Positions 4,227-60,493 of a stretch of DNA of 64,000 bases are shown here, piece by piece. The translations under genes and the position numbers were made by a program. The notes under the pieces are model-generated. The model worked only from the letters and a program-made list of their open reading frames with translations. It was not told the DNA's origin and made no database searches. Each line of letters starts with the position of its first letter. Positions within the stretch are counted from its first letter, which is position 1. This stretch comes from Naegleria gruberi. Taxonomy: Eukaryota. The stretch lies in NCBI GenBank assembly GCA_000004985.1, contig GG738903.1, one strand, 5' to 3'.

Positions 4227-4299
4227 GCCCGTCTAGCTCAGTCGGTAGAGCGCAAGGCTCTTAACCTTGTGGTCGTGGGTTCGACCCCCACGGTGGGCG
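4227..4299 (+). tRNA. tRNA-Lys (anticodon CUU)
   Basis: GCCCGTCTAGCTCAGTCGGTAGAGCGCAAGGCTCTTAACCTTGTGGTCGTGGGTTCGACCCCCACGGTGGGCG folds as a cloverleaf with A and B boxes, a 7-nt anticodon loop CTCTTAA and a 7-bp acceptor stem. It is near-identical to metazoan/fungal tRNA-Lys-CTT. A T-run lies 5 nt downstream. Confidence 0.9.
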
Positions 4300-12420: not shown

Positions 12421-12690
12421 ACTGAATGTTGATCAATTCCAGTTCATACACAAGAGCATAACAATTGTTGTCATGTTGTTGTTGTGGAAAGGAACGTGTG
12501 TTAGGAGGTTTCGGTAAATTGTTGAAGATTGTTATTGTGGAAAGTCTACTATTTAGAAACAAACATTTCTTGTTAAAACTGAGACAGTTGTAATCATCTC
12601 CTTCCATATGAATGGCAATCTCGCGTTTTTTAAAAAGTGGATGCACCCAACAAATATGGTAAGGAAATTCGTAAGAAAGAAAAAAAGTAG

Positions 12691-12763
12691 TGGAGATGCG
12701 GGGTATCGATCCCCGTACCTCTTCCATGCTAAAGAAGCGCTCTACCATGTGAGCTACATCCCC
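12691..12763 (-). tRNA. tRNA-Ala (anticodon AGC)
   Basis: The reverse complement reads GGGGATGTAGCTCACATGGTAGAGCGCTTCTTTAGCATGGAAGAGGTACGGGGATCGATACCCCGCATCTCCA. The anticodon loop TTAGCAT gives AGC, a G3:U70 pair is present, and the T-arm GGGGATCGATACCCC matches eukaryotic tRNA-Ala. An oligo-T terminator follows on the minus strand (aaaaaaag on plus). Confidence 0.85.
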
Positions 12764-17797: not shown

Positions 17798-19918
17798 ATG
17801 AAGACTAAATATGTTTTGGTGATTGGTGGTGTTATTTCAGGACTTGGTAAGGGTATCATTGCCAGTTCCGTCGGTAGATTGTTGAAGGAAGCTGGTCAAA
17901 ATGTTACTAGTATCAAGATTGATCCATATATTAACATTGATGCTGGTACTATGTCTCCTTATGGTATGTTTTTCATATTTACATGATGATGTTCATTCTT
18001 ATTCTTTTCTACTTGTGCTATCTTCTCATTTGCTATTTGCCTTCTTGCATCCAAACGAACACTGTCCACTCTGCTTTGTTGTCTTAACTTTCCATTGAAT
18101 GAAACTGTGTGGGTCGTTGTGAAATTTTTTTTGATGCACATTTTGTTTGTATTTTGCTCTTTCCTCAATATGACCTTGTTTGGTGCTGTGATATCTTCGT
18201 CAATAATGGGCTCACTTTTCACACAATCTTTTTCACATGTACACTCTATAGAACATGGTGAAGTTTATGTTTTAGATGATGGTGGTGAAGTTGATTTGGA
18301 TTTGGGTAACTATGAAAGATTCCTTAATTTGAGACTCCACTCTGATAACAATCTTACTACTGGTAAGATTTACAAGTCTGTCATTGAAAAGGAAAGAAGA
18401 GGTGACTACTTGGGAAAGACTGTTCAAGTTGTTCCACACGTTACTAACGAAATTCAAGAATGGATTCGTCGTGTTTCTCTCGTTACTACAGATGTTGCCA
18501 TCTTGGAAAAGCATCCATCATCTAATCCTGATGTCTGTATTATTGAATTGGGTGGTACCATTGGTGATATTGAAGGAATGCCTTTCATTGAAGCTTTGCG
18601 TCAATTCCAACAAAAGGTTGGAAGAGAAAACTTCTGTTGCATTATGGTCAGTTTGGCTCCTGCTATTACTTCAGACAGTGAACAAAAGACTAAGCCAACC
18701 CAACAATGTGTCAGAGAATTGAGAGCTGTTGGTTTCTCACCAGATTTCATTGTTGTTAGATCCGAAGAAGTTTTGCAAAAGGCTGTCAGAGAAAAGATTT
18801 TCAACTTTTGTGGTGTTGAAAGTGTTGACCACGTTATTGGTTGTCACAATATGAGAAATCTCTTGGCTGTTCCAGAATTGCTTGCTCAACAAGGACTCGG
18901 TAAATTGATTCAAAAGAGACTTGGTTTGCAACAAAAGAGTGATTTGCAATTCGATCAATTGCCAACATGGTCCACTTTTGTTTCCAAGTTCGACCAAGTT
19001 GATACTCAAAAGACTGCTACTAGAATTGCCATTGTTGGTAAATATACTGAACAACCTGATGCTTATCTTTCCATTCAAAAAGCATTCCAACACTCAAGCT
19101 TAATGTTGGGAGAAAAGATTGAACTCGTTTATATTGAAGCCAGTAATTTGGAACCAACTGAATGTACTGCTGAAGATGAAACTTCTTCTCAATCATCAGA
19201 TACTGAAGTTTACTCGACTAATTGGGATTTGCTCAAATCATGCCATGGTATTTTGGTTCCAGGTGGTTATGGTATCAGAGGTACTGAAGGTAAAATTGCT
19301 GCTGTCAAGTATGCCAGAGAAAATAATATTCCATACTTGGGTATTTGTTTGGGTATGCAATTGGCAGTTGTTGAATTTGCTAGAAACGTTCTCGGATATA
19401 GCAATGCCACTAGTGAAGAATTCAATGGTGAACAAGAAGAATCAGAAAAGAAGCACAGAAAGAAGAGAGTCGATCCAAAGAATGTCATTGTTTACATGCC
19501 AGAAATTTCCAAGACTCATTTGGGTGGTACCATGAGATTAGGTTCAAGAACTACCATCTTTGTCAATTCACCTGTTGGAGATGATAGCGAAATTGAAAAC
19601 CTTGAAGGATCTCTCTTATCTAAGTCAAAGATTTTCGAATTGTACGGTAAGAAGCCAAGAACTAATGAAAGACACAGACACAGATATGAAGTCAATCCAA
19701 ATTTGGTTCCAGAATTCACAAAGCAAGGACTTATCTTTGTTGGTCAAGATACCACCAGACAAAGACAAGAAATTTGTGAAATTTTGACTCATAACTACTT
19801 TGTTGCTGTCCAATACCATCCAGAATTCCAATCAAGCTTGGAAAATCCAAGTCCACCATTTGTTGGTTTGGTTAAATATTCTGCCGAACAAAAGAGAAAG
19901 GTAGAAACTCAACAATAA
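17798..19918 (+). CDS. CTP synthase (610 aa), two exons
   Basis: Model join(17798..17963, 18252..19918). Exon 1 is [55 protein letters not shown]. Donor G|GTATGT; 288-nt intron; acceptor TATAG. Exon 2 continues [24 protein letters not shown]... The GATase domain has GICLGMQ and HPEF. Total 1833 nt, in frame. Confidence 0.85.
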
Positions 19919-22446: not shown

Positions 22447-23562
22447 ATGAGGAGTTTCGAATGGGGAATTAGTAAATTTTATAAAAAAATGTCTGTTCCT
22501 CCTCCACCTGGTGGCATTCCATCAATGCCACTCGTCAAACCTGTTGAGAAAACAACCTCACAACCAAAGAGTAGTTTACAAAAATCTTCACTATCTCTTT
22601 CCGAAGCCAAAACTCATCCTCTCGATATTCCAATTGATTGGTCCAATATTCAAAATGTATTCCTCTCCTCCAATCAAACTTCAGGAATTTTATTTGTTGA
22701 AACTCAAGAGAAAGATCATGTGGTTGTGGTGAAGGCAACCTCAACCATAGCTCAGGAAATTTATGGAGGAAAGATTGCTGAATTTTTGGGATTGAAAACA
22801 CCACAAGTAAAGCTAATGGAATACAGAGCTGATTTTAAGAATCCCATTAAAAAGTATTGGGCCGATTGTAAAAAGTATTTGAAAGAATTTACTGTGAAAT
22901 ATGGAATGAGTGTTGAACAGAGAAAGATTGAGAAGGAGTTGTTTAGAGCTTTCTTCTTGTTGATGGAGTTCATTGAGGGAGCAACAAGTTTGGATGATAT
23001 AATGAGTGACGAAAGTATTGGAAAGTCACTTTTGGAAAATGAGCAAGTTTGTGAGGATTTTGGTGGAATGATAGTGTTGGACATTATTCTGAATAATTGT
23101 GATAGATTACCACTTGATTTGATATGGAATCATGAAGGTAATTCGTCCAATATTCTATTTTCTCCCAAGCTGCAAAGATTAGTTCTAATTGACCAAGCAT
23201 TTATGGCAATAATTAATGAGGGTCAGAAACAGACCTACTTTAAAAAGATAGAGTCTTTCTCAAAATGTTGTTCAGAAGAAACTCTTTCCAATAATCCATA
23301 TTTAGACCAAGTTGTTGACTATATTTACAATTGCACTGGATACAAGATGAGCGATCAAGCAAAGGAAAATATTCACAAAGGAATTTTGAAATCCATCGAG
23401 AAATTAAAATCAATCAATAAGGAAACATTACAAGGATTCAAAACAGAAGTGGAAATGATGAAAACAGGATCAGATTGGGAATCAACGTATTTCAATTCTG
23501 TATTAACTATTGATATTGATTTTCTCTATGAAGCCATTCAAAAGATGACCAATATTCAATAA
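22447..23562 (+). CDS. atypical kinase-like protein (PI3/PI4-kinase or actin-fragmin-kinase-like fold), 371 aa
   Basis: HVVVVKATSTIAQEIYGGKIAEFLGLKTP resembles the VAIK-type lysine region. LLMEFIEGATSL is a hinge-like segment. IVLDIILNNCDRLPLDLIWNHEGNSSNILF resembles the PI4K-II / AFK catalytic loop (DRxxxN). LVLIDQAF sits in the DFG position. Confidence 0.4.
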   Translation: MRSFEWGISKFYKKMSVPPPPGGIPSMPLVKPVEKTTSQPKSSLQKSSLSLSEAKTHPLDIPIDWSNIQNVFLSSNQTSGILFVETQEKDHVVVVKATSTIAQEIYGGKIAEFLGLKTPQVKLMEYRADFKNPIKKYWADCKKYLKEFTVKYGMSVEQRKIEKELFRAFFLLMEFIEGATSLDDIMSDESIGKSLLENEQVCEDFGGMIVLDIILNNCDRLPLDLIWNHEGNSSNILFSPKLQRLVLIDQAFMAIINEGQKQTYFKKIESFSKCCSEETLSNNPYLDQVVDYIYNCTGYKMSDQAKENIHKGILKSIEKLKSINKETLQGFKTEVEMMKTGSDWESTYFNSVLTIDIDFLYEAIQKMTNIQ

Positions 23563-23678: not shown

Positions 23679-25203
23679 ATGTCCAAACATGCAATGCTCA
23701 CAAATTATGGACACAAGCTGTGCAGTTTATTCACCAAAGGATCCCAATTGCAATTCCTTTTGATCAAACGACCACAATTCAGCGACGACAATCGTGGTTT
23801 TGCAATTCAACAAAATGACGACCTGAAAGGACACCGAAAGATTACCATAGAATCAAATTTTCCAGTCGGTGGACGAATGAATAAATCATTGGAGGAGAAT
23901 TATCATGTATTGGGTGGTGCTGATAGTGGTGGTGATGGTCAAGGATTGAAATTCCTTACTCAATCATTGGATGCTTTTGAAAAATGTTATCAAGTGGTCA
24001 ATCGGATGAGTTTGGAAAAGAATGATGAAAGAGTTGAGGTACAAAAAGTGAGCTATCTTTTGGGAAGATCACAAGTTGGGTTGTACATGATAAGGGACTT
24101 GATGAGGGATGGATTGACGACTGAAGAGTTTGAGTCTTCACATGAGTTATATTTGGATAATCTACCAAAAATTGGAATATCTATTGATGGTAAAGATGTT
24201 TCAAAGCTTGATTCGCCATCGATGAGACATGCACTATGGTTATGGCATTTGGAAAGGTTGATTTCCTTTGGTGACAATTTCACAAGGGAGAAACTAATTG
24301 CATTGTTCTATCTCATTATTCACACAATGTGGAATAGAGAACCAACTTACTCTCTTCATTACATGAGGTTATTTACTAATGAATATTCAAAGACGAAGAA
24401 GTTGTACACTAGCATATTGGGAGATTCATTGACGAACACGTGGTCTCAAGTTTTGGGCAGAATTTTCACAGAAAATGAATTTGATAATTTCAATGATTTG
24501 GATAGTGAGCTTCCTGTAAACCTTAAAAGTATGTATCATATATTCTCTGCGTTTATTTCATTTGCAGACAGTGAAAGCATTCCTGTCGACACTTATTTAA
24601 GAGCTTTGGATAAAGAGCAAGTGAATAATCCACTCAACACATACATTCCATTTATGAAAGTAATGATGGAAGATCAATTTGAAGACATTGAAACTGTATT
24701 GAAAATAATGGAGAAATCACCAATAACTAATCATCAAGCTAATGAAAAGAGATATGGAAAGTGGTGGACTATTTTTGAGTGAAAAGCATGAAAATATTGA
24801 GAGAATTAAGGATTTTAAATTCTATCCAGTTCTTTATTGGAAAGCTTGTGCTGTCAGTGAGCCATCATCTGATCGAGATTTGTCAGATATGAGAAATTTT
24901 GTAAAGCAACTTGAATTCTTCTCTGGAATGCCATCTCATTGTAAATTGTTAAATCTCAAAATAATGGATGAATATAATCATGGAAATTATGAACGAGTTT
25001 TGGAAATATTCAACTTCTCTGAAAAGCATTTCCATTCCCAAATCAAAATGGATGATGATTACTGTTCCACTTTTTATGGATGCCAAGCTTTACATAAATT
25101 AGGAAGAAAAGAAGAAGCACTTTCAATAATTCAAAAGAAAGTAACAAGATACGGTTCAATAGAAACATCATTTCATGAGTTGTTTTCAATTGTTAATAAA
25201 TAA
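23679..25203 (+). CDS. hypothetical protein; two overlapping ORFs (23679–24782 and 24742–25203) probably one gene
   Basis: The adjacent ORFs sit in frames 0 and +1 and overlap by 41 nt. The second starts with a true ATG. Either an unresolved short intron, a frameshift, or two overlapping genes. No recognised domain. Confidence 0.3.
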
Positions 25204-25393
25204 ACGAGAAAATAACCTATGATGTTGTCATTTCTCAAACATGTCAGTATGTTGGCCACATCCAAAATATCACGGGATGGATTTCAAATCACGAAAAGAG
25301 GAAATGTGGTAAATTTTAGAAATTACAAGTAAACTAATTTTTGTAACCTCTCAAAGATTAGTTTCGTTTCTGATATTAACACAACTAAAAAAA

Positions 25394-26738
25394 ATGTTCG
25401 ACAAGCCAACCCACACAATTTCACTGATCGGGCAAACAGGCAGTGGTAAATCAACACTTTTAGGTCAACTATTGTATCAGATGGGATATATTTTAGATGA
25501 ACAATTAGAAGAAATTTCAAAAACTGCCGATAAATTAGGAAAACCAAATTGTAAATATTCCTTCCTGGTCAACTCAACCAGAAAGGAGAGGGAATGTGCA
25601 TCAACAAGTCAATTATCATTTAGACAAGTGGAAACTAAAAATTATTTCTGTAATTTAATTGACACACCAGGTAGGAATTATTTGAATTTATTGAAACAAT
25701 CAAATTTTTGGAATATTGAAAGGAAGTGAAATTTATATGAAAAAAACAATTCGTGCCTTGGCAATTTCGAATACACTAATTGCAGTAATTGATCCGAGAG
25801 AAGTCGAATTCAAAAGGAGCATCAATCGGCTTGATGGAATATTGACACAGTACATGCTTTCTCCCATAGTTACCAGTTCACAAATTATTTGTTGTGTCAA
25901 TTTAATGGATCATCTAGAAATTAATTATTCAGAGCAAGTCTTTGTGAAAACAGTTAGTGAACTTTCAAAAATCTTGAAAAGAACAGGATCGTCTTCAGTA
26001 GATATCATTCCAATTTCTGCTTATTGTGGAGATAATATTGTGGAACTATCTGATAAAACACCATGGTATGAGGGTAAATGTCTGTTGGATGCTTTGAATT
26101 CATTGAAACCAACAGTAAATAATTTGGAACTAAGTTTAAGAATTCCAATTTTGGATGTTAAAAAAATAAGTGGAGTTGGAACAGTTGTTTATGGAAAAGT
26201 TGTAGCAGGGATACTAAAAATGGAATCAAAAATAGTATTGGCTAATTCTAATATTGAAAATGCAAGAATTGCATCTATTGAATCATTTGGAAAGCGATTG
26301 GAAGAAGCAAAATCTGGTCAACTGGTGGCTATCAACTTGCGTAATGTCTTACACAGCTCAATCAAATCAGGAGATGTAATATTAGAGGAAGGAAAATCTA
26401 CTGGTATGGTAACTCGCTTCTTTGAAGCAAATATTTTAAACATTGACCATCCAAAAGGCATTCATCCAAATTACCAACCTACAATTCAATTACAGGCTAC
26501 TCAAGCTAAATGTAAATTGGTTACTATTAAGGAAAGCTCTTGTCATAGGATTTTGAAGGAATATTTTCCCCCCTTTATTAAGAGAAACTATTTAGGAGTG
26601 GTTGAGTGTGAATTAGACAAAGCTTGTTATTTGGATACGGATGCATTTTGTAGATTTTTTATTAGAGATTTTAGGAAGGTGATAGGATTTGGCGCGATTA
26701 CTCGTGTTGGAGTTGAACAAGTTGAAAGTAATAAATAA
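25394..26738 (+). CDS. EF1A-family paralog with degenerate GTPase motifs (about 430 aa), two exons
   Basis: Model join(25394..25670, 25723..26738). N-terminus MFDKPTHTISLIGQTGSGKST aligns to EF1A [22 protein letters not shown]. G3 is DTPGG (EF1A DAPGH) and G4 is NLMD (EF1A NKMD). The intron GTAGGA...AAAG is 52 nt. Domain II (ISGVGTVVYGKVVAGILK) and domain III (FFEANILNIDHPKGIHPNYQP...; FCRFFIRDFRKVIGFGAI) are present. Confidence 0.7.
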
Positions 26739-27043
26739 TGTTTCTAATATTATTATCAAGAACTTTGCATTTACATTTGGTTTTGCTGCCCAAGTCAGAG
26801 CTTTCGGATTGAACAAGGATTTTATTGATACTCAAATCATATATGTGGATTTTGAAGCTGGAATGATGAGAATTGATGCTGAGATTTCCTTTGCTCCAAT
26901 TACAGACATTCCAGTCTCTGTCATTACCAAGTCCTCTGGTCACGGAACTGACTATGTCATTGAGGAATTCTTTAACTGGAACCATGGTTCAAAAGCCATC
27001 CCCATCAACAGATATGCCATTAAAAAGCAATAAACTGTTACAA

Positions 27044-28316
27044 TCAATACATTTGGCAAATCATGTCCACATCATTAAAATTCAATTTTTCATTGAATTT
27101 ATAAATAAAATGTTTTGGAATGATATCAATATCCGAATAGAATAGAATTTCGTCATGCCACACTACATATTTTAATGAGGGAGCACAGCTTTCCATTCCA
27201 TTTATGCTTTGAATCTTGACCACCTTTCGATTATTATTCGAAAACACGGCGTATTCCACTATTTTCCATAATCGAACAAAAAATTCTCTAAAATAACTTA
27301 CTGGTAGAAAGAATGTAAACATCATTATAAATAATATAAGCATCAAAGATTGATTGAGGTGAAAAATCAATCTCCACAATCTTTCTCCAAACATCTATAG
27401 TTCCCATAAATGATCCAGCAATGAATATTTCGTGAGCAATAGTCATGGCCAATGAAATATTTTGGCCAGCAGAGAGTCCAATAATTTCATTATCTGAAGG
27501 TAAATCGAGAGGTTTCGGATTAGTGATGCAAAAGTGTTTTTCATAGCCAAGTTGTTTGTGATCGTTATTTCCCCAAACAAGTCCGTTACCATCCTCAAAT
27601 ACAGCAAGGCAATTAGCAAAACCAGAGGCAATAATCTTGACCCTTCTTCCTTTGATTTTACTATTCGAAATCTTTGTCATATCATGTGCTCTATCACCAC
27701 TACAAGCCAATTGACCAAATCCTGAATTTCCACAAAAATACAGCTCTCTATTCATATCTAAAAAGTAACTGTGGCCATAACCTGTCTTTACATCCACCAA
27801 TTCATCATTTCTCTGTACCAATTCAAACCTCAAATCGGCCATCGATGGCGATCCAATTGTCGTTCCAGCTTGATTCCATGTATTGTAAGTAGTGGCTCCA
27901 TATAAATTTCCCAATCTAGTTTTTAATATCACATTAATTGGCGAAATCTCAAAATCCACAACAAATTCATGTTCCAAATCAACAGGTTTCCACTTTTGCT
28001 CAACATGCACATAAATCCTTCCCTTCCTCGTTAAAACAATCATTGAATCGGAAGTCATTTTCCCCATCATGTAAATATCATCAGTTATTCCCTCCTCATA
28101 ATATTCCGATTTTGATAAGAAGACTTGTGTTGGTTTAGTATCATCTCTCATCAAATAATTATTAAAATCTAATTGTGATCGTTGAATGGGAGATCGTTGA
28201 TCCAGATGATGATGATGATTAGCATGAACAATATTTTGCTTTTTCATTGGTTTCTTCTTGTTGGCTTTTAGTTTTTTTGTTGTTGGAGCCGTAAACAATG
28301 AGGTGATAAAGTTCAT
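27044..28316 (-). CDS. RCC1-repeat (regulator of chromosome condensation-like) beta-propeller protein
   Basis: ATG at 28316. RCC1 signatures are LYFCGNSGFGQLACSGD, LVWGNNDHKQLGYEK and IAGSF. The main exon is 27302–28316. A probable 3' exon spans 27044–27258, reached via donor A|GTAAGT, a 43-nt intron and acceptor AAATAG. It bypasses the TAG at 27288 and adds about 70 aa in frame, for 1230 nt total. Confidence 0.6.
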
Positions 28317-28629
28317 CTCGGTTGTCTATCTATTTTTTTTGTTGTTGTAATTTTAGAATGAAGTTTACAAAAATGTTGTGCTGTTGGCAATTAATTCAGT
28401 ATGGAATGAGGAATAATAGTTGTAAAGTAACAAAATAATTAGTCCCAAATAGATGGTAAATAGAATGAATTGTTACGTCCCAATCGCATAGAAAATTTAA
28501 TGTTCGATTTATTTGAGCTATTAAATAATCCGCCAAGCGCAAGCACAAATCCAAATGGAGACATTTCAGAAATACTATTTAATTTCTAATGTTTCACAAC
28601 TATTCGAAACAAACAACAATCAAAACAAA

Positions 28630-29178
28630 ATGTCTAAAACTCTTGTATTCTTCTTCCACGAAAGATTTGAAAGCTCTCAAGCCAATCGTTCCATGATAAA
28701 GGCCTTGTCAACTCTTGACAATATTGAAATTGTAAACATGCATCAAATATTTACTGAAAATGGTAACAAGTTTGATTCCAATTCAGATATTCAAAGACTT
28801 TTGAATGCAGACAGAATTATCTTTCAATTTCCAATCCAATGGTACTCAATGCCAGCTTTTATGAAACAATGGATTGATGAAACCTTTACTAGAATGTACT
28901 ATATTCGATATGGAGAGGAAGGATTGAAAATGGAGGGAAAGAAATTTATGATATCTGTTACTGCTGGTAATTTTGAGGAGGCATACACTCCACAAGGTCA
29001 GAATTTGATTCCACTCGATGACTTGTTGAATCCATTGAAAGCTCTCGCTCACAGATGTAAATTACAATGGAGTGAACCATTCATTTCCTATCGTGCCAAT
29101 AAGAAATCAGTTGAAGAATTGGAAGAAACTGCCGAACAATATCGTCAATTTGTTTCCAAATGGATGGAAAAGTATTAA
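28630..29178 (+). CDS. flavodoxin-like fold NAD(P)H:quinone oxidoreductase family protein (KefG/KefF/MdaB-like)
   Basis: MSKTLVFFFHERFESSQANRSMIKAL...ADRIIFQFPIQWYSMPAFMKQWIDETF...GKKFMISVTAGN...CKLQWSEPF matches the bacterial KefG/'general stress protein 14' pattern (FxHP, Q-F-P-x-x-W-x-x-x-P-A-x-L-K-x-W-x-D). ATG at 28630. Confidence 0.6.
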   Translation: MSKTLVFFFHERFESSQANRSMIKALSTLDNIEIVNMHQIFTENGNKFDSNSDIQRLLNADRIIFQFPIQWYSMPAFMKQWIDETFTRMYYIRYGEEGLKMEGKKFMISVTAGNFEEAYTPQGQNLIPLDDLLNPLKALAHRCKLQWSEPFISYRANKKSVEELEETAEQYRQFVSKWMEKY

Positions 29179-29312: not shown

Positions 29313-29431
29313 GGCTACGGCCATATCACGATGAATGCACCTCATCCCGTCCGATTTGAGAAGTTAAGCATCGTCGAGCCACATCAGTACTGAGGTTGGA
29401 GACAACTTGGGAACCTGTGGTGCTGTAGTCT
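29313..29431 (+). rRNA. 5S ribosomal RNA gene
   Basis: GGCTACGGCCATATCACGATGAATGCACCTCATCCCGTCCGATTTGAGAAGTTAAGCATCGTCGAGCC...GGTGCTGTAGTCT carries the conserved 5S helices and loops (CCCGTCCGAT..GAAGTTAAGC; 3' GGTGCTG). It is about 119 nt and is followed by a TTTTT Pol III terminator. Confidence 0.85.
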
Positions 29432-29477
29432 TTTTGAAACTAACCTTATTGCAAACTTATTTTTCGGCCTTACTGAA

Positions 29478-32400
29478 CTAAGGTTTTCGTTTTTTGGAAC
29501 ACTCATGAGTTGTGAAAATTTGTTTCCTCAAACATTTTTCAATTTCTATGGGCAACTTATCCAAGCTTGACATTGCGTCTGCATGCAACCCCGGCCCAAT
29601 AAACGGTTCCAAGAATCTATAGATTGTTTGTTGATTCTCTTTGAATATTGTTGCATAACTGAGAATTGAAATTTTGAATAGATTATTGTCTGTCATGTGT
29701 TGAACTACTTCACGCAAGCTTTCTATCCTAAATCTAATCTTAAAACACGGTGAAAACCCACATCTTGCAACATGTCCTTGCACATCCATATAAATTTCAT
29801 CATTTTTCCTGATTCTGAAAATGCGTCTAATGAAATAGTCATAAATCATGCCAGTGACTGCATTGTCCTTGAATGTTTGAGATTTTGCTTCCAAGTCTTG
29901 AATTGAAAAATTGTCAGGCATTCTATGCACTGATTTTGGAATGAGTATGAAACCAGTGTAATTACTAATTGGGCAATATTCAATGATACTAGAGTTATAG
30001 TCAATTTTTGGTACTAATGCTCCATTGTTTTCATTGTTTTGATTATTGAGGAAGGAATTCTTGAAAATTTTCATAAAATTATTCAATACAAAAGCATGGT
30101 GAGAATATCTTTGAAAGCTCAGTATCACATTTTCTCCATTAGCAAGTTCCAATTCAATAGTTGAATAATCTTCAGATTTAGTTATTAAATAAATACCAGG
30201 TTTGACTTCTTTCATTGTAAACGGTATCAAGAATGGAAAATCAATTTGTATTGATTGCACCGTATCAAGATAATCCAAAAATGAGCTCTGATATCTTATT
30301 ATTTTGTAATATTCAGTGTCAATCATTTTCAAATATTTCATTAGGATTAGTTTGCAGACTGCATAGGAAGATTCCACTTTCAGAAGCCAAAATAATTGAT
30401 TTCCAAATAATTTTGATTTCAGACATCTATTCTTGAGAAGGTATTCAGCTAAAACTCCATATTCATTCTCGTATTTGATACAATGAACAAGAAATGGTAA
30501 AATATCAGAAAATAAATCATCTGATGTTTCTTCTAGGCATTTGATTAATACCAGTTTCGAAAATATTCCAATATTCTCGGAGAAGAGTGATATCATCTCA
30601 ATAATATTTGGTTTCTTCCATTTTCCTAATGTTTGGTTAGCTTCATAAATGATCATTGGGGTTTCGAATGAAATTCCATAAAGAAATGGAACAAAATGCG
30701 AAGGCTCATTCATATCCCACTTATTTCCTTCCAAATAAGTTTCTAAATTTGAATCACTCACATTGTTTTGAATCAAAGATAATGGATGGTTTGGTATTCT
30801 ATCAAAATCATATTCAATAATTGAATCATAAGTTGGAAACTCAATGTCTAGAGAAATTTGTGAGTTTTTTGCACCTTTTGCAAAAAGCCTGACATTCCCT
30901 TGAAGTAATTTCATATTTGAATCAAAAACTGGACATTCAAAGTGATCTTTAAAAACAACTTTTCTTGGTAATCCAGTTTCAGAACACTCTGTTTCCATAA
31001 CAAGTGAAAAATCGATGCAATAATCACATGATATTTCTGAAATTAGTGAATCAAATAAAACCTCTTCATTCCAATCTAAGCAACTCAAACTTTGAGGAAA
31101 GATATTTCTTGTTTTGTGAATTTCTTTCTTATTATTCCTTCCAACTATGGAATATTCAATTGTAAAGGAAAGAGGTTTTTGGTATTTAAATTCAAAATCC
31201 TTGAATGTGAGACCACAGAGTTGATTAATCCTCATTTTCATTCTCTCATTGATTTGGAAAGATGATACAGTATCATTTGTTTGATTGGTTTCTAATATTT
31301 TAATATCCGAAAGTGAATCAAGGAATGCAACATTACTTTCAAAATCCGCATTGGCAGTATTTACAGATTTTCCAATATCAATAAATCTAATTCTATCCCT
31401 TTTTAGCCCTATTCCACAAACAATCTCACTCTCATGATCTTTCAAACGGCTGTTATTCATGGATAGATAAATCAATGATGGCATATTCTCAATAATGGAA
31501 ATTGCTTTCGTACAAAGACGATTTTCAGAAATATTTAATCGTTTCAAATTCTTCCATTCATATTCCTCAAATATTGAATCAATACCACAGTCTGGAACGT
31601 CAAGACTGGTCAATTGTTCCAAATCACAAATATTCTTGATTAAATGAAAATCAATGAGACCAAATGTTGAAATTTTTAGTCTTTTCAGCTTGAGAGGTTT
31701 GAATTCTGTGATAGTTTCCAAGAAATCCTTCCAAATTGATTTACTTGAAATGGTAAGGCTGACTAAATTATTGAATTCGCATTTTGCAAATTCTGAAAAG
31801 TTTTCAATATTTCCTTGTTCAAGTATAAATTCTTCTAAATTATTAGAAATTCTATTAAGGTCTTTTAAATTTACACTCAATTTTCTCAAATTACTGTATT
31901 CCAAATGTGTCAATTTGGTCATAGAATATGACCAACAGTCAAATTTAGTTCTCATTTCCAAGGAATAAAGTTGTGGCTTAATGGATAGTCCAGCAACTTC
32001 TTCTACTTCGTTAACGGATGAATCTACTAACAAATTTACCAAATTAGGCAAACTCATTTTACTATTCATCAATTTATAATATTCTTGGTTATCAATTATT
32101 GATTCCATAATATCCAAAGATTTCAATTTGTAAAAATGTGAAATACTATTAAATTTAAATCCTTCCCTATCACGACCTTGAATATCTCTAATTGTTAAAT
32201 GCTCCAAATTATGCACAAGTCTTGGGGAATTTTTCATAATTTCAAGATCGCTATTCGAAAATGGTCCCCAAATATTCGAAATATTATAAAAATTAATTGA
32301 ATTGTTTTTAATTGCAATGAGGAAATGATTCACTGCTGGATCAACATAGGCTCCCTGGGAGAAACACATTTTCCTACTGGCCAAGATTTTAACTTGAATT

Positions 32401-32531
32401 TTGTTCAGAGTTGATGCTAACCTCCATTTCGAACAAACTAAGGAAATTATTCGAATGATGAATTTTGAATGAAGGAAGGAAAATATTTCCACCAACATTT
32501 CGGATGGAATGTCGTTTAGCTTTTCATACAT
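29478..32531 (-). CDS. F-box / LRR protein fused to a PI3K-type helical (accessory) and divergent catalytic-like region (1017 aa)
   Basis: ATG at 32531. N-terminal F-box: IPSEMLVEIFSFLHSKFIIRIISLVCSKWRLAS. The middle holds L..L.L..C.I-type LRRs. The C-terminal third contains LPFLVHCIKYENEYGVLAEYLLKNRCLKSKLFGNQLFWLLKVE, which matches the PI3K accessory/helical signature (VQALKYE...LA.FLL.RAL.N..IGH.FFW.LRSE). A region of the size expected for the catalytic domain follows, with no intact DRH/DFG motifs. Confidence 0.55.
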   Translation of the reverse strand: MYEKLNDIPSEMLVEIFSFLHSKFIIRIISLVCSKWRLASTLNKIQVKILASRKMCFSQGAYVDPAVNHFLIAIKNNSINFYNISNIWGPFSNSDLEIMKNSPRLVHNLEHLTIRDIQGRDREGFKFNSISHFYKLKSLDIMESIIDNQEYYKLMNSKMSLPNLVNLLVDSSVNEVEEVAGLSIKPQLYSLEMRTKFDCWSYSMTKLTHLEYSNLRKLSVNLKDLNRISNNLEEFILEQGNIENFSEFAKCEFNNLVSLTISSKSIWKDFLETITEFKPLKLKRLKISTFGLIDFHLIKNICDLEQLTSLDVPDCGIDSIFEEYEWKNLKRLNISENRLCTKAISIIENMPSLIYLSMNNSRLKDHESEIVCGIGLKRDRIRFIDIGKSVNTANADFESNVAFLDSLSDIKILETNQTNDTVSSFQINERMKMRINQLCGLTFKDFEFKYQKPLSFTIEYSIVGRNNKKEIHKTRNIFPQSLSCLDWNEEVLFDSLISEISCDYCIDFSLVMETECSETGLPRKVVFKDHFECPVFDSNMKLLQGNVRLFAKGAKNSQISLDIEFPTYDSIIEYDFDRIPNHPLSLIQNNVSDSNLETYLEGNKWDMNEPSHFVPFLYGISFETPMIIYEANQTLGKWKKPNIIEMISLFSENIGIFSKLVLIKCLEETSDDLFSDILPFLVHCIKYENEYGVLAEYLLKNRCLKSKLFGNQLFWLLKVESSYAVCKLILMKYLKMIDTEYYKIIRYQSSFLDYLDTVQSIQIDFPFLIPFTMKEVKPGIYLITKSEDYSTIELELANGENVILSFQRYSHHAFVLNNFMKIFKNSFLNNQNNENNGALVPKIDYNSSIIEYCPISNYTGFILIPKSVHRMPDNFSIQDLEAKSQTFKDNAVTGMIYDYFIRRIFRIRKNDEIYMDVQGHVARCGFSPCFKIRFRIESLREVVQHMTDNNLFKISILSYATIFKENQQTIYRFLEPFIGPGLHADAMSSLDKLPIEIEKCLRKQIFTTHECSKKRKP

Positions 32532-60422: not shown

Positions 60423-60493
60423 TGCATTAGCCGGGAGTCGAACCCGGGTCACCAGCTTGGAAGGCTGGTATGATACCGTTACACTACTAATGC
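60423..60493 (-). tRNA. tRNA-Gly (anticodon UCC)
   Basis: The reverse complement reads GCATTAGTAGTGTAACGGTATCATACCAGCCTTCCAAGCTGGTGACCCGGGTTCGACTCCCGGCTAATGCA. The anticodon loop CTTCCAA gives TCC, and the T-arm GGGTTCGACTCCC is canonical. It is near-identical to eukaryotic tRNA-Gly-TCC. A T-run follows on the minus strand. Confidence 0.9.

What the first reader, a model, noticed from the sequence alone, without database searches (positions are those of the whole stretch)
25394..26738. EF1A paralog with the catalytic histidine and guanine-specificity motif mutated
The protein is collinear with EF1A over all three domains, and the N-terminus even keeps the KPTH..I.LIG..DSGKST pattern. The G3 motif is DTPGG, so the His that activates the hydrolytic water in EF-Tu/EF1A is Gly, and the NKxD motif is NLMD. 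Such a protein should bind but not hydrolyse GTP efficiently, or have lost nucleotide specificity. This is reminiscent of Ski7/HBS1-type regulatory pseudo-translational GTPases, but here it is derived from EF1A itself. A 52-nt intron splits the G domain exactly after DTPG.
Basis: partly seen in the sequence, partly recalled or inferred. Interest (0 to 1): 0.65.

Follow-up and report, generated by a model that had tools for sequence, protein, structure and literature searches.

The report
Divergent, probably GTPase-dead EF1A paralogue in Naegleria
This is a real, intact gene of the amoeba Naegleria gruberi that encodes a very divergent copy of translation elongation factor EF1A without its catalytic histidine; it is one of many odd EF1A copies already counted in this genome, so it is moderately interesting rather than new in kind.

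Summary
The window is Naegleria gruberi and the gene is NAEGRDRAFT_73219. The two-exon model holds: exon 1 25394-25670, a 52-nt GT..AG intron 25671-25722, exon 2 25723-26738, giving 430 aa. The protein is collinear with EF1A over all three domains.

- Spliced, G3 reads DTPG-S, not DTPGG.
- The P-loop is GQTGSGKST, so the Val and Asp of GHVD are also lost.

G4 is NLMD as reported, but its Asn and the guanine-specifying Asp are kept.

Two close homologues from one metagenome keep the exons, the 52-nt intron, the open frame and NLMD. The former His position varies among them (S, S, M). dN/dS is about 0.3-0.4. The P-loop/switch I exon is the most constrained part and the switch II helix the least.

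The protein groups (88% bootstrap) with two other His-less N. gruberi EF1A paralogues. It scores far better against EF1A than against Hbs1 or eRF3, and it has no N-terminal extension. Atkinson 2015 already lists 13 EF1A-type genes in N. gruberi, plus separate eRF3 and Hbs1. His-less EF1A-like proteins also occur in Anaeramoeba, Stentor, Physarum and Halteria.

Best reading: a selected EF1A-derived protein that binds nucleotide but does not hydrolyse it. Its function is unknown.

The parts
25394..25670 (+). Exon 1 (codons 1-92 plus the first base of Gly93). It encodes the N-terminus, the P-loop, switch I and D-T-P of G3.
   Evidence: The ORF and splice were computed. Exon 1 is 277 nt in all three homologues. 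It is the most constrained part of the gene, with pN/pS about 0.2.
25430..25456 (+). G1/P-loop GQTGSGKST (canonical GHVDSGKST). The GxxxxGKS/T core is kept; His, Val and Asp are replaced.
   Evidence: G13, G18, K19, S20, T21 kept; H14Q, V15T, D16G.
25589..25609 (+). G2/switch I RECASTS (canonical RERGITI). The Mg-coordinating Thr71 is kept.
25661..25670 (+). G3, first part: D90-T-P and the first base of Gly93 (DxxG kept).
25671..25722 (+). Phase-1 spliceosomal intron, 52 nt, GTAGGA...GAAAG, 21% GC.
   Evidence: The length (52 nt) and the GT/AG ends are conserved in L001 and L002, and L002 has extra substitutions and compensating indels inside the intron. Read-through stops at 25729. The NCBI model uses the same donor.
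25723..26738 (+). Exon 2: the rest of Gly93, Ser94 in place of the catalytic His, the rest of the G domain, domains 2 and 3, and the TAA stop.
   Evidence: Similarity to L001 and L002 ends at the stop codon.
25725..25727 (+). Ser94 codon (agt) at the position of the catalytic His of DxPGH. It is Ser in L001 and Met in L002.
25899..25910 (+). G4 NLMD (canonical NKxD). Lys is replaced by Leu; Asn and Asp are kept. The motif is identical in all three homologues.
26013..26036 (+). G5 region ISAYCGDN (canonical ISGW/VSAW..GDN). The SA is kept.
26178..26381 (+). Domain 2 (beta-barrel), Pfam GTP_EFTU_D2, residues 245-312.
   Evidence: 40.9 bits against a cut-off of 30.3. pN/pS is about 0.3.
26418..26708 (+). 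Domain 3, Pfam GTP_EFTU_D3 / GTP-eEF1A_C, residues 325-421.
   Evidence: This is the most relaxed domain, with pN/pS 0.4-0.7.

Best explanation
The locus is NAEGRDRAFT_73219 of Naegleria gruberi. It is an intact, two-exon, selectively maintained gene for a 430-aa protein.

Shown:
- The protein is a highly derived paralogue of elongation factor EF1A.
- It belongs to a Naegleria-specific group of divergent EF1A copies, together with NAEGRDRAFT_60891 and NAEGRDRAFT_60950. That group is part of a published expansion of 13 EF1A-type genes in this genome.

Inferred mechanism:
- The residues that hold nucleotide and Mg are kept and are the most constrained part of the gene. These are the P-loop GxxxxGKST, the switch I Thr, DxxG, the Asn and Asp of G4, and the SA of G5.
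- The residues that trGTPases use for ribosome-activated hydrolysis are gone: the switch II His, the P-loop Val of the hydrophobic gate, and the P-loop Asp that holds the monovalent cation. The switch II helix is evolving almost freely.
- The protein therefore most likely still binds guanine nucleotide, probably more weakly because the NKxD Lys is lost, but cannot carry out ribosome-triggered GTP hydrolysis.
- It keeps only 38 of 66 positions that are invariant in canonical a/eEF1A. The changed positions include several in the KNMITG/SQAD segment and in the DVY and HH motifs of domain 2.
- It is therefore probably no longer a working aminoacyl-tRNA delivery factor. It more likely acts as a non-hydrolysing binding or regulatory protein, analogous to Ski7 but not related to it by descent.

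Its partner and cellular role are unknown.
For: - Organism and gene identity.
- Splice model, three EF1A domains and full-length collinearity.
- Conservation in two homologues of the exon structure, the 52-nt intron, the open frame and NLMD.
- Purifying selection: dN/dS is 0.39 and 0.31 against L002 (Fisher p = 4e-7 and 2e-10). By region, exon 1 (G1-G3) is about 0.2, the switch II helix 0.65-0.69, and domain 3 0.4-0.6.
- Motif states.
- Ski7 has Ser for His and Thr for Val, and co-purifies with GTP: PMC4509514.
- EF1A rather than Hbs1 or eRF3 affinity.
- Monophyly with the two other N. gruberi paralogues at 88% bootstrap. Shared derived signatures (VV[YF]GK, EAK[SA]G, Y[QK]PT).
- Published expansion (aEF1A x1, eEF1A x12, plus eRF3 and Hbs1): Atkinson 2015 main text and supplement.
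- Native base composition: CDS 33.5% GC against 33.4% for the window.
Against: - There is no expression data, so a transcribed and spliced mRNA is not shown.
- The 5' splice site GTAGGA is less canonical than the GTATGT of a neighbouring gene's intron.
- dN/dS of 0.3-0.7 is high for a translation factor. The window-versus-L001 comparison alone does not differ significantly from neutrality (p = 0.2).
- The residue at the former His position and the P-loop Thr are not conserved among the three homologues (S/S/M and T/K/T), so the exact match to Ski7 may be coincidence.
- L001 is not syntenic with the window. The 'homologues' may therefore be paralogous copies rather than orthologues, which weakens the cross-species reading.
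- The loss of the G4 Lys could mean the protein binds no nucleotide at all.
- The deep nodes of the tree are unsupported, and an NJ tree of long branches is weak evidence.
Confidence: 0.6

Rival explanations
1. Decaying duplicate: one of many redundant EF1A copies drifting towards pseudogene status. It would be unexpressed or without function, and its motif losses would be simple degeneration.
For: - It sits in a large family expansion.
- Constraint is relaxed, with dN/dS 0.3-0.7.
- Only 38 of 66 invariant core positions are kept.
- The former catalytic position is variable.
- The 5' splice site is unusual.
- No close relatives were found outside three sequences.
Against: - Three homologues all keep a 430-435-codon open frame, the start, the stop, and an intron of exactly 52 nt.
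- dN/dS is significantly below 1 against L002 (p = 4e-7).
- Constraint is patterned by region, with the P-loop/switch I exon at about 0.2. That is not expected for a dead gene.
Confidence: 0.15
2. Nucleotide-free pseudoGTPase scaffold: the EF1A fold is kept only as a binding platform, for example for one of the moonlighting roles of EF1A such as actin binding, and no GTP is bound.
For: - The G4 Lys is lost and the P-loop Asp, Val and His are changed.
- Many canonical core positions are changed.
- Divergent EF-1alpha copies in other protists have been proposed to keep only auxiliary, non-translational roles (Kamikawa 2013, PMC3699394).
Against: - GxxxxGKST, the switch I Thr, DxxG, N..D and SA are all kept in all three homologues.
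- The exon that carries G1-G3 is the most constrained region.
Confidence: 0.12
3. Still an active translational GTPase or elongation factor that uses non-canonical catalytic residues (Ser positioning the water), or that has altered nucleotide preference.
For: The Ski7 authors consider that a Ser could in principle stabilise a catalytic water. The overall three-domain architecture is intact.
Against: - The position is Met in L002, so no catalytic side chain is conserved.
- The P-loop Asp and Val are also lost.
- The protein scores 251 bits against a 540-bit cut-off for the EF-1alpha equivalog.
- 28 of 66 universally invariant positions are changed.
- N. gruberi has many other eEF1A genes to do the canonical job.
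Confidence: 0.08
4. Foreign origin: acquired from an archaeon (it scores best against archaeal EF1A) or from a giant virus of amoebae (these encode EF1-family GTPases).
For: - The best PDB and database hits outside Naegleria are crenarchaeal aEF1A: 226 bits against 186 for mammalian eEF1A.
- One N. gruberi gene is binned as 'aEF1A' in Atkinson's table.
- Giant viruses encode EF1-family GTPases (PMC6582330).
Against: - It groups with two other N. gruberi paralogues (88% bootstrap). One of these scores slightly higher against eEF1A than against aEF1A (308 against 293 bits).
- The eukaryotic PDB and reference eEF1A sequences are opisthokont (mammal, yeast, nematode). The nematode one carries a roughly 12-aa insertion that is absent from the archaeal EF1As and from all three Naegleria paralogues, which penalises the score.
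- Base composition is native and the gene has a spliceosomal intron.
- Its neighbours are ordinary eukaryotic genes.
- No relative was found in viral contigs.
Confidence: 0.04

Closest known systems
Canonical a/eEF1A (translation elongation factor 1-alpha; TIGR00483; Pfam GTP_EFTU + D2 + D3)
   Same: It has the same three-domain architecture, collinear from residue 1 to about 425, and a similar length (430 aa). EF1A is the best hit in every library.
   Different: - Identity is only 30-33%.
- It scores 251 bits against a 540-bit equivalog cut-off.
- The catalytic His, the P-loop His, Val and Asp, and the G4 Lys are replaced.
- 28 of 66 universally invariant positions are changed.
NAEGRDRAFT_60891 and NAEGRDRAFT_60950 (two other divergent EF1A paralogues of N. 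gruberi)
   Same: - They group with it at 88% bootstrap.
- They share derived signatures (VV[YF]GK, EAK[SA]G, Y[QK]PT) and the N-terminus M-x-[DE]-KPT.
- They also lack the catalytic His.
   Different: - They are only 31-34% identical to the window protein but 49% identical to each other.
- They keep the Lys of G4: NKMD in 60891 and NKME in 60950.
- 60891 also keeps the GHVD P-loop.
- The window lineage has the longest branch.
Ski7 (S. cerevisiae), a non-canonical Hbs1-derived trGTPase-like protein
   Same: Both have Ser at the catalytic His position and Thr at the P-loop Val position, with the P-loop Asp also replaced, on an otherwise intact G-domain scaffold. Ski7 co-purifies with GTP, which serves as a model for how the window protein might behave.
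   Different: [quoted passage not shown]
- The window protein descends from EF1A and has no N-terminal extension.
- Its Ser and Thr are not conserved in its own homologues.
Divergent EF-1alpha genes of EFL-containing ('dual-EF') eukaryotes (Kamikawa et al. 2013, PMC3699394)
   Same: These are long-branch EF-1alpha copies thought to have given up the main elongation role and kept only a subset of functions.
   Different: In those species the divergent copy co-occurs with EFL as the main factor. Atkinson's table lists no EFL for N. gruberi but many eEF1A copies.
His-less EF1A-like proteins of other protists (Anaeramoeba flamelloides, Stentor coeruleus, Physarum polycephalum, Halteria grandinella, and many unnamed metagenomic sequences)
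   Same: They are about 420-450 aa, EF1A-collinear, and have the catalytic His replaced (R, N, K, D, S, G and others), often with the P-loop Asp lost as well. 34 of the 103 nearest cluster representatives lack the His.
   Different: No supported phylogenetic link to the Naegleria group was found; deep nodes have about 0% bootstrap. The losses are probably independent. None of these proteins has been characterised.
Hbs1 and eRF3
   Same: They belong to the same EF1 family and have the same G-D2-D3 core.
   Different: - They score much lower: 122 and 119 bits against 226 for EF1A.
- They have N-terminal extensions and intact G motifs.
- N. gruberi has its own copies.

Membership tests
a/eEF1A (EF-1alpha) | Three-domain architecture (G domain, domain 2 barrel, domain 3) collinear over the full length | tested here: met
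   Pfam GTP_EFTU scores 83 bits, D2 41 bits and D3/GTP-eEF1A_C 34-40 bits, all above their cut-offs. The protein aligns over residues 1-425 to A. pernix aEF1A.
a/eEF1A (EF-1alpha) | Score above the curated equivalog threshold (TIGR00483 EF-1_alpha, 540.1 bits) | tested here: not met
   It scores 251.4 bits. PRK12317 gives 259.6 against a cut-off of 502.
a/eEF1A (EF-1alpha) | Canonical G motifs: GHVDxGKST, RGxTI, DxPGH, NKxD, SA/SG | tested here: not met
   The motifs are GQTGSGKST, ECASTS, DTPGS and NLMD, with only the SA of G5 unchanged. The nucleotide- and Mg-contact residues are kept, but His94, Val15, Asp16 and Lys153 are replaced.
a/eEF1A (EF-1alpha) | Retention of residues invariant across archaeal and eukaryotic EF1A | tested here: not met
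   It keeps 38 of 66. An Hbs1 keeps 57 of 66 and the paralogue 60891 keeps 50 of 66.
a/eEF1A (EF-1alpha) | GTP-dependent aa-tRNA delivery with ribosome-activated hydrolysis | not testable with these tools
   This needs biochemistry.
Ski7 | Non-canonical active site (Ser for the catalytic His, Thr for the P-loop Val) on a GTP-binding scaffold | tested here: inconclusive
   The window protein has Ser94 and Thr15, as Ski7 does. Its homologues have Met (L002) at the His site and Lys (L001) at the P-loop site.
Ski7 | Descent from Hbs1, and an N-terminal exosome/Ski-complex binding region | tested here: not met
   The protein starts 12 residues before the P-loop. It scores 122 bits to Hbs1L and 77 to yeast Hbs1, against 171-226 to EF1A. 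Identity to an Hbs1 is 26%.
eRF3 / Hbs1 | Closest sequence affinity to eRF3 or Hbs1, an N-terminal extension, and intact G motifs | tested here: not met
   N. gruberi has separate eRF3 and Hbs1 genes (Atkinson 2015 supplement).
Naegleria-specific divergent EF1A paralogue group (with NAEGRDRAFT_60891 and 60950) | Monophyly and shared derived substitutions | tested here: met
   NJ bootstrap is 88% for the five Naegleria sequences. Shared signatures are visible in the alignment. Caveat: this is a distance tree with long branches.
Divergent EF-1alpha of dual-EF species (Kamikawa 2013) | [quoted passage not shown] | tested here: not met
   Atkinson's list of 37 trGTPases for N. gruberi contains no EFL. 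This rests on the literature only; the genome was not searched here.
EFL (elongation factor-like) | Sequence affinity to the EFL clade | not tested
The best hits in all libraries were EF1A.

The most novel reading that the evidence does not exclude
The window gene and its two N. gruberi relatives would be members of an unrecognised, widespread class of EF1A-derived pseudo-GTPases in phagotrophic protists (Naegleria, Anaeramoeba, Physarum, Stentor, Halteria). These proteins would bind GTP but not hydrolyse it. They would have a dedicated role at the ribosomal A site, such as stalling, surveillance or hibernation, as an EF1A-derived functional analogue of Ski7. Alternatively, they would act as binding decoys for EF1A-targeting factors of intracellular bacteria. 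The decoy idea has no support here: the residue equivalent to the Legionella Lgt target Ser53 is Asn in this protein, by my own reading of the alignment.
Probability: 0.1. Interest if true: 0.7.

Novelty: new member of a known kind. Interest (0 to 1): 0.35.

Why it matters
If the protein binds GTP but cannot hydrolyse it, it would be an EF1A-derived counterpart of Ski7. It would show that the core elongation factor itself, and not only Hbs1, can be turned into a non-catalytic factor.

Similar His-less EF1A-like genes occur in several unrelated protists, and N. gruberi carries 13 EF1A-type genes. Together these point to a recurrent and so far uncharacterised fate of EF1A duplicates.

There is also a practical point. 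The public gene model for NAEGRDRAFT_73219 appears to be mis-spliced. It deletes 70 residues of the G domain and fuses a downstream ORF, so the database protein hides the very motifs at issue.

Against that, the family expansion is already in the literature and no function or expression is known. For now this is a well-documented curiosity.

Tried and rejected
It was run with the exon 2 product instead.
- The top hit, P0121, was a tandem-duplicated Meloidogyne eEF1A model whose score was inflated by two matching stretches. It was used only to rebuild a canonical eEF1A reference.
- Two JGI metagenome scans found no close relative. One scan of viral contigs found none.
- An attempt to fetch the genomic locus of paralogue 60891, to compare intron positions, failed because the protein is not on record.
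- A test of eukaryote-versus-archaea signature columns gave only one usable column and was uninformative.
- The accession of this gene could not be found in Atkinson's supplementary tables because the relevant file is truncated. Whether this gene is the one binned there as 'aEF1A' remains a guess.
- Synteny with L001 was tested and not found, so the homologues are not claimed to be orthologues.
- Structure prediction was not run.
- Identity as Ski7, Hbs1 or eRF3 was rejected on scores and architecture. Viral or archaeal origin was considered and found to be unsupported.
Full report
**What is at the coordinates**

The region 25394-26738 (+) holds two ORFs in different frames, 25394-25729 and 25716-26738. 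Removing a 52-nt GT..AG segment at 25671-25722 (21% GC, against 33% for the flanking coding sequence) joins them into a 1293-nt CDS of 430 codons that ends at the TAA at 26736-26738. The junction is cca g|ga agt, so the intron is in phase 1 inside the Gly codon of DxxG. The next AG would give a 56-nt intron and break the frame.

The product matches Pfam GTP_EFTU (83 bits), GTP_EFTU_D2 (41) and GTP_EFTU_D3/GTP-eEF1A_C (34-40), all above their gathering thresholds. It aligns from residue 1 to 425 with solved EF1A structures.

**Organism and annotation**

The best database hit, at 99% identity, is a 'predicted protein' of Naegleria gruberi: NAEGRDRAFT_73219, EFC38938.1/XP_002671682.1. The window fits a gene-dense eukaryote. 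It is 33% GC, has dispersed tRNA genes including tRNA-Ala(AGC), and a neighbouring gene has a spliceosomal intron.

- It uses the same donor (GT at 25671) but a distal acceptor (AG at 25931-25932). This deletes residues 94-163, which run from the switch II helix to the G4 motif.
- It uses a second 40-nt 'intron' (26721-26760) that skips the stop codon and fuses ORF 26761-27033.

The 210 nt removed by the public model encode EF1A-homologous sequence. They are open in all three homologues. Similarity between the homologues ends exactly at the TAA.

**Homologues**

Two contigs from one ENA metagenome assembly (ERZ929261; loci L001 and L002) encode proteins 90% and 83% identical to the window protein. 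Both keep:
- the ATG and a 277-nt exon 1;
- an intron of exactly 52 nt with GT..AG ends (identical in L001; in L002 it has many substitutions and compensating indels);
- an open exon 2 and a stop at the same place.

NLMD is identical in all three. The P-loop is GQTGSGKST, GQKGSGKST and GQTGSGKST. The residue at the catalytic His position is Ser, Ser and Met. The loss of His is therefore shared, but no replacement residue is conserved.

Nei-Gojobori dN/dS is 0.39 (window against L002) and 0.31 (L001 against L002). Both are significantly below 1 (Fisher p = 4e-7 and 2e-10). The closer pair, window against L001, gives 0.72 and is not significant.

Constraint differs by region:
- the exon that carries G1, G2 and DxxG: about 0.2;
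- the switch II helix just after the lost His: 0.65-0.69;
- G4-G5 and domain 2: about 0.3;
- domain 3: 0.4-0.6.

One caveat applies. L001 is not syntenic with the window. Only 25354-26739 matches, and L001's first 95 nt match window 29349-29443. Divergence between the window and L001 is also mosaic. These sequences may be paralogous or recombined copies rather than clean orthologues.

**Family placement**

Against PDB sequences the protein scores:

| Target | Bits |
|---|---|
| A. pernix aEF1A | 226 |
| Sulfolobus aEF1A | 207 |
| Mammalian eEF1A | 186 |
| Yeast eEF1A | 171 |
| Hbs1L | 122 |
| eRF3 | 110-119 |
| CysN | 92 |
| Yeast Hbs1 | 77 |

In NCBIfam the best model is EF-1alpha, but at 251 bits against a 540-bit cut-off. 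BLASTP identities are 34% to NAEGRDRAFT_60891, 33% to a crenarchaeal aEF1A, 30% to a nematode eEF1A and 26% to an Hbs1. The protein starts 12 residues before the P-loop, so it lacks the N-terminal extension of eRF3, Hbs1 and Ski7.

The higher archaeal score is at least partly an artefact. The eukaryotic references used (mammal, yeast, nematode) are opisthokonts. The nematode eEF1A carries a roughly 12-aa insertion that is absent from the archaeal EF1As and from all the Naegleria paralogues.

An exhaustive HMMER search of 1.84 billion cluster representatives found nothing closer than 36% identity outside the gene's own cluster. It did reveal two further N. gruberi genes:
- NAEGRDRAFT_60891: GHVDAGKST, DAPVGS, NKMD.
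- NAEGRDRAFT_60950: GQANSGKTT, DAPANP, NKME.

A neighbour-joining tree was built from 105 sequences, 429 columns and 100 bootstraps. The three window-type sequences group at 100%, and they join the other two N. gruberi paralogues at 88%. All deeper nodes are unsupported. The group sits in a bush of long-branch eukaryotic EF1A-like sequences, not with Archaea. Shared derived signatures support common descent of the Naegleria group: VV[YF]GK for VPVGR, EAK[SA]G for EAxPG, Y[QK]PT for YTPV, and an M-x-[DE]-KPT start.

**What is already published**

[quoted passage not shown] Its supplementary table lists 37 trGTPases for N. gruberi: one binned as aEF1A, twelve as eEF1A, nine as eEF2, and single eRF3 and Hbs1 genes, with no EFL and no Ski7. 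The expansion is therefore known, and canonical termination and rescue GTPases exist separately. I found no paper that describes the motif losses of this gene.

**How common the phenomenon is**

Among the 103 nearest EF1A-family cluster representatives that cover G1-G3, 34 lack the catalytic His. The replacements include R, N, K, D, G, S and others. Only 8 of those 34 keep the P-loop Asp, against 52 of the 69 that have His. Named examples are Anaeramoeba flamelloides (two genes), Stentor coeruleus, Physarum polycephalum and Halteria grandinella. A Ceratiomyxa protein has SHMD at G4. The sample is biased towards divergent sequences, but His-less EF1A-like paralogues are clearly recurrent in protists.

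**Mechanistic reading**

Kept in all three homologues:
- P-loop: G13, G18, K19, S20, T21.
- Switch I (Mg contact): T71.
- DxxG: D90 and G93.
- G4: N152 and D155.
- G5: S191 and A192.

Lost:
- H94, the residue that positions the hydrolytic water once the ribosome activates the factor.
- V15, the P-loop half of the hydrophobic gate.
- D16, the ligand for the monovalent cation.
- H14.
- K153.

Ski7 has the same Ser-for-His and Thr-for-Val changes and an Asn for the P-loop Asp. It co-purifies with GTP and is more stable with a GTP analogue than with a GDP analogue (PMC4509514). By analogy, and given that the G1-G3 exon is the most constrained region while the switch II helix is nearly free, I infer that the protein binds guanine nucleotide but does not perform ribosome-triggered hydrolysis. 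Because the G4 Asp is kept, weaker affinity is more likely than lost specificity.

Only 38 of 66 positions invariant in 15 canonical archaeal and eukaryotic EF1As are kept, against 57 in an Hbs1. Changes fall in KNMITG.SQAD (KKTIRALAISN), in DVY of domain 2 (DVK), in HH (FG) and in PGD (SGQ). From general knowledge of EF-Tu/EF1A ternary complexes, several of these lie near the aminoacyl-tRNA and switch surfaces, so loss of canonical aa-tRNA delivery is plausible. This is inference, not a test.

**Rivals**

- A decaying duplicate is the main rival. Dead genes do not keep three 430-codon frames, a length-conserved intron and region-patterned constraint, but expression is unproven.
- A nucleotide-free scaffold cannot be excluded, because the G4 Lys is lost.
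- Residual catalysis is unlikely, because the former His site is Ser or Met.
- Archaeal or viral origin has no support: the gene groups with other Naegleria paralogues, has native composition and a spliceosomal intron, sits among ordinary eukaryotic neighbours, and has no relative in viral contigs.

**Verdict**

The interpretation as an EF1A-derived, Ski7-like non-catalytic paralogue is reasonable in outline. It overstates the loss of guanine specificity, and it misses that the gene is one of a published family of divergent EF1A copies.

It is a new, individually undescribed member of a known kind. Interest is moderate to low, and would rise if expression and GTP-locked behaviour were shown.

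Noticed in passing
window 25671-25932 and 26721-27033: The public gene model NAEGRDRAFT_73219 (445 aa) appears to be mis-spliced. It uses the same donor as the 52-nt intron but a distal acceptor (AG at 25931-25932), which deletes 70 residues of the G domain. A second 40-nt 'intron' (26721-26760) skips the conserved TAA and fuses the unrelated ORF 26761-27033. The homologues keep the deleted stretch open and stop at the TAA.
   Followed up: partly
L001 1-95 and 400-1797, against window 29349-29443 and 25354-26739: The closest homologue is not syntenic. Similarity covers only the gene plus 40 nt of its 5' flank. L001's upstream end matches a window segment 2.6 kb downstream of the gene, at 97%. 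Divergence is mosaic: the intron and the middle of the gene are nearly identical, while domain 3 has pS of about 0.19. This suggests recombination, gene conversion or paralogous copies in N. gruberi-like strains.
   Followed up: partly
not in the window (proteins P0270 and P0166; P0160, P0168, P0163, P0185, P0247): Two further N. gruberi EF1A paralogues (NAEGRDRAFT_60891 and 60950) lack the catalytic His. So do EF1A-like proteins of Anaeramoeba, Stentor, Physarum and Halteria. In all, 34 of the 103 nearest cluster representatives lack it, usually together with the P-loop Asp.
   Followed up: partly
window 26743-27033 (+): A small ORF (96 aa from the first ATG) lies immediately downstream. It has no Pfam hit and no counterpart in L001 or L002. 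It is currently annotated as the C-terminus of the EF1A-like protein.
   Followed up: partly
window 17964-18251 (+): The CTP synthase gene has a 288-nt phase-1 intron with GTATGT...TATAG ends between MSPY and EHGEV. This shows a more canonical 5' splice site than the GTAGGA of the EF1A-like gene's intron.
   Followed up: partly
window 4227-4299 (+), 12690-12763 (-), 60423-60493 (-): Three dispersed tRNA genes: Lys(CTT), Ala(AGC) and Gly(TCC).
   Followed up: no
window 23679-24782 and 24742-25203 (+): Two long ORFs just upstream overlap by 41 nt in different frames and have no convincing Pfam hit. They may be one gene split by a short intron.
   Followed up: no
window 22447-23562, 27288-28316 (-), 28555-29178, 29478-32531 (-): The neighbours are ordinary, unrelated eukaryotic genes: an actin-fragmin kinase-like protein, an RCC1-repeat protein, a flavodoxin-like/NAD(P)H dehydrogenase fold protein, and an F-box + PI3K-accessory domain protein. 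There is no translation-related gene cluster.
   Followed up: yes
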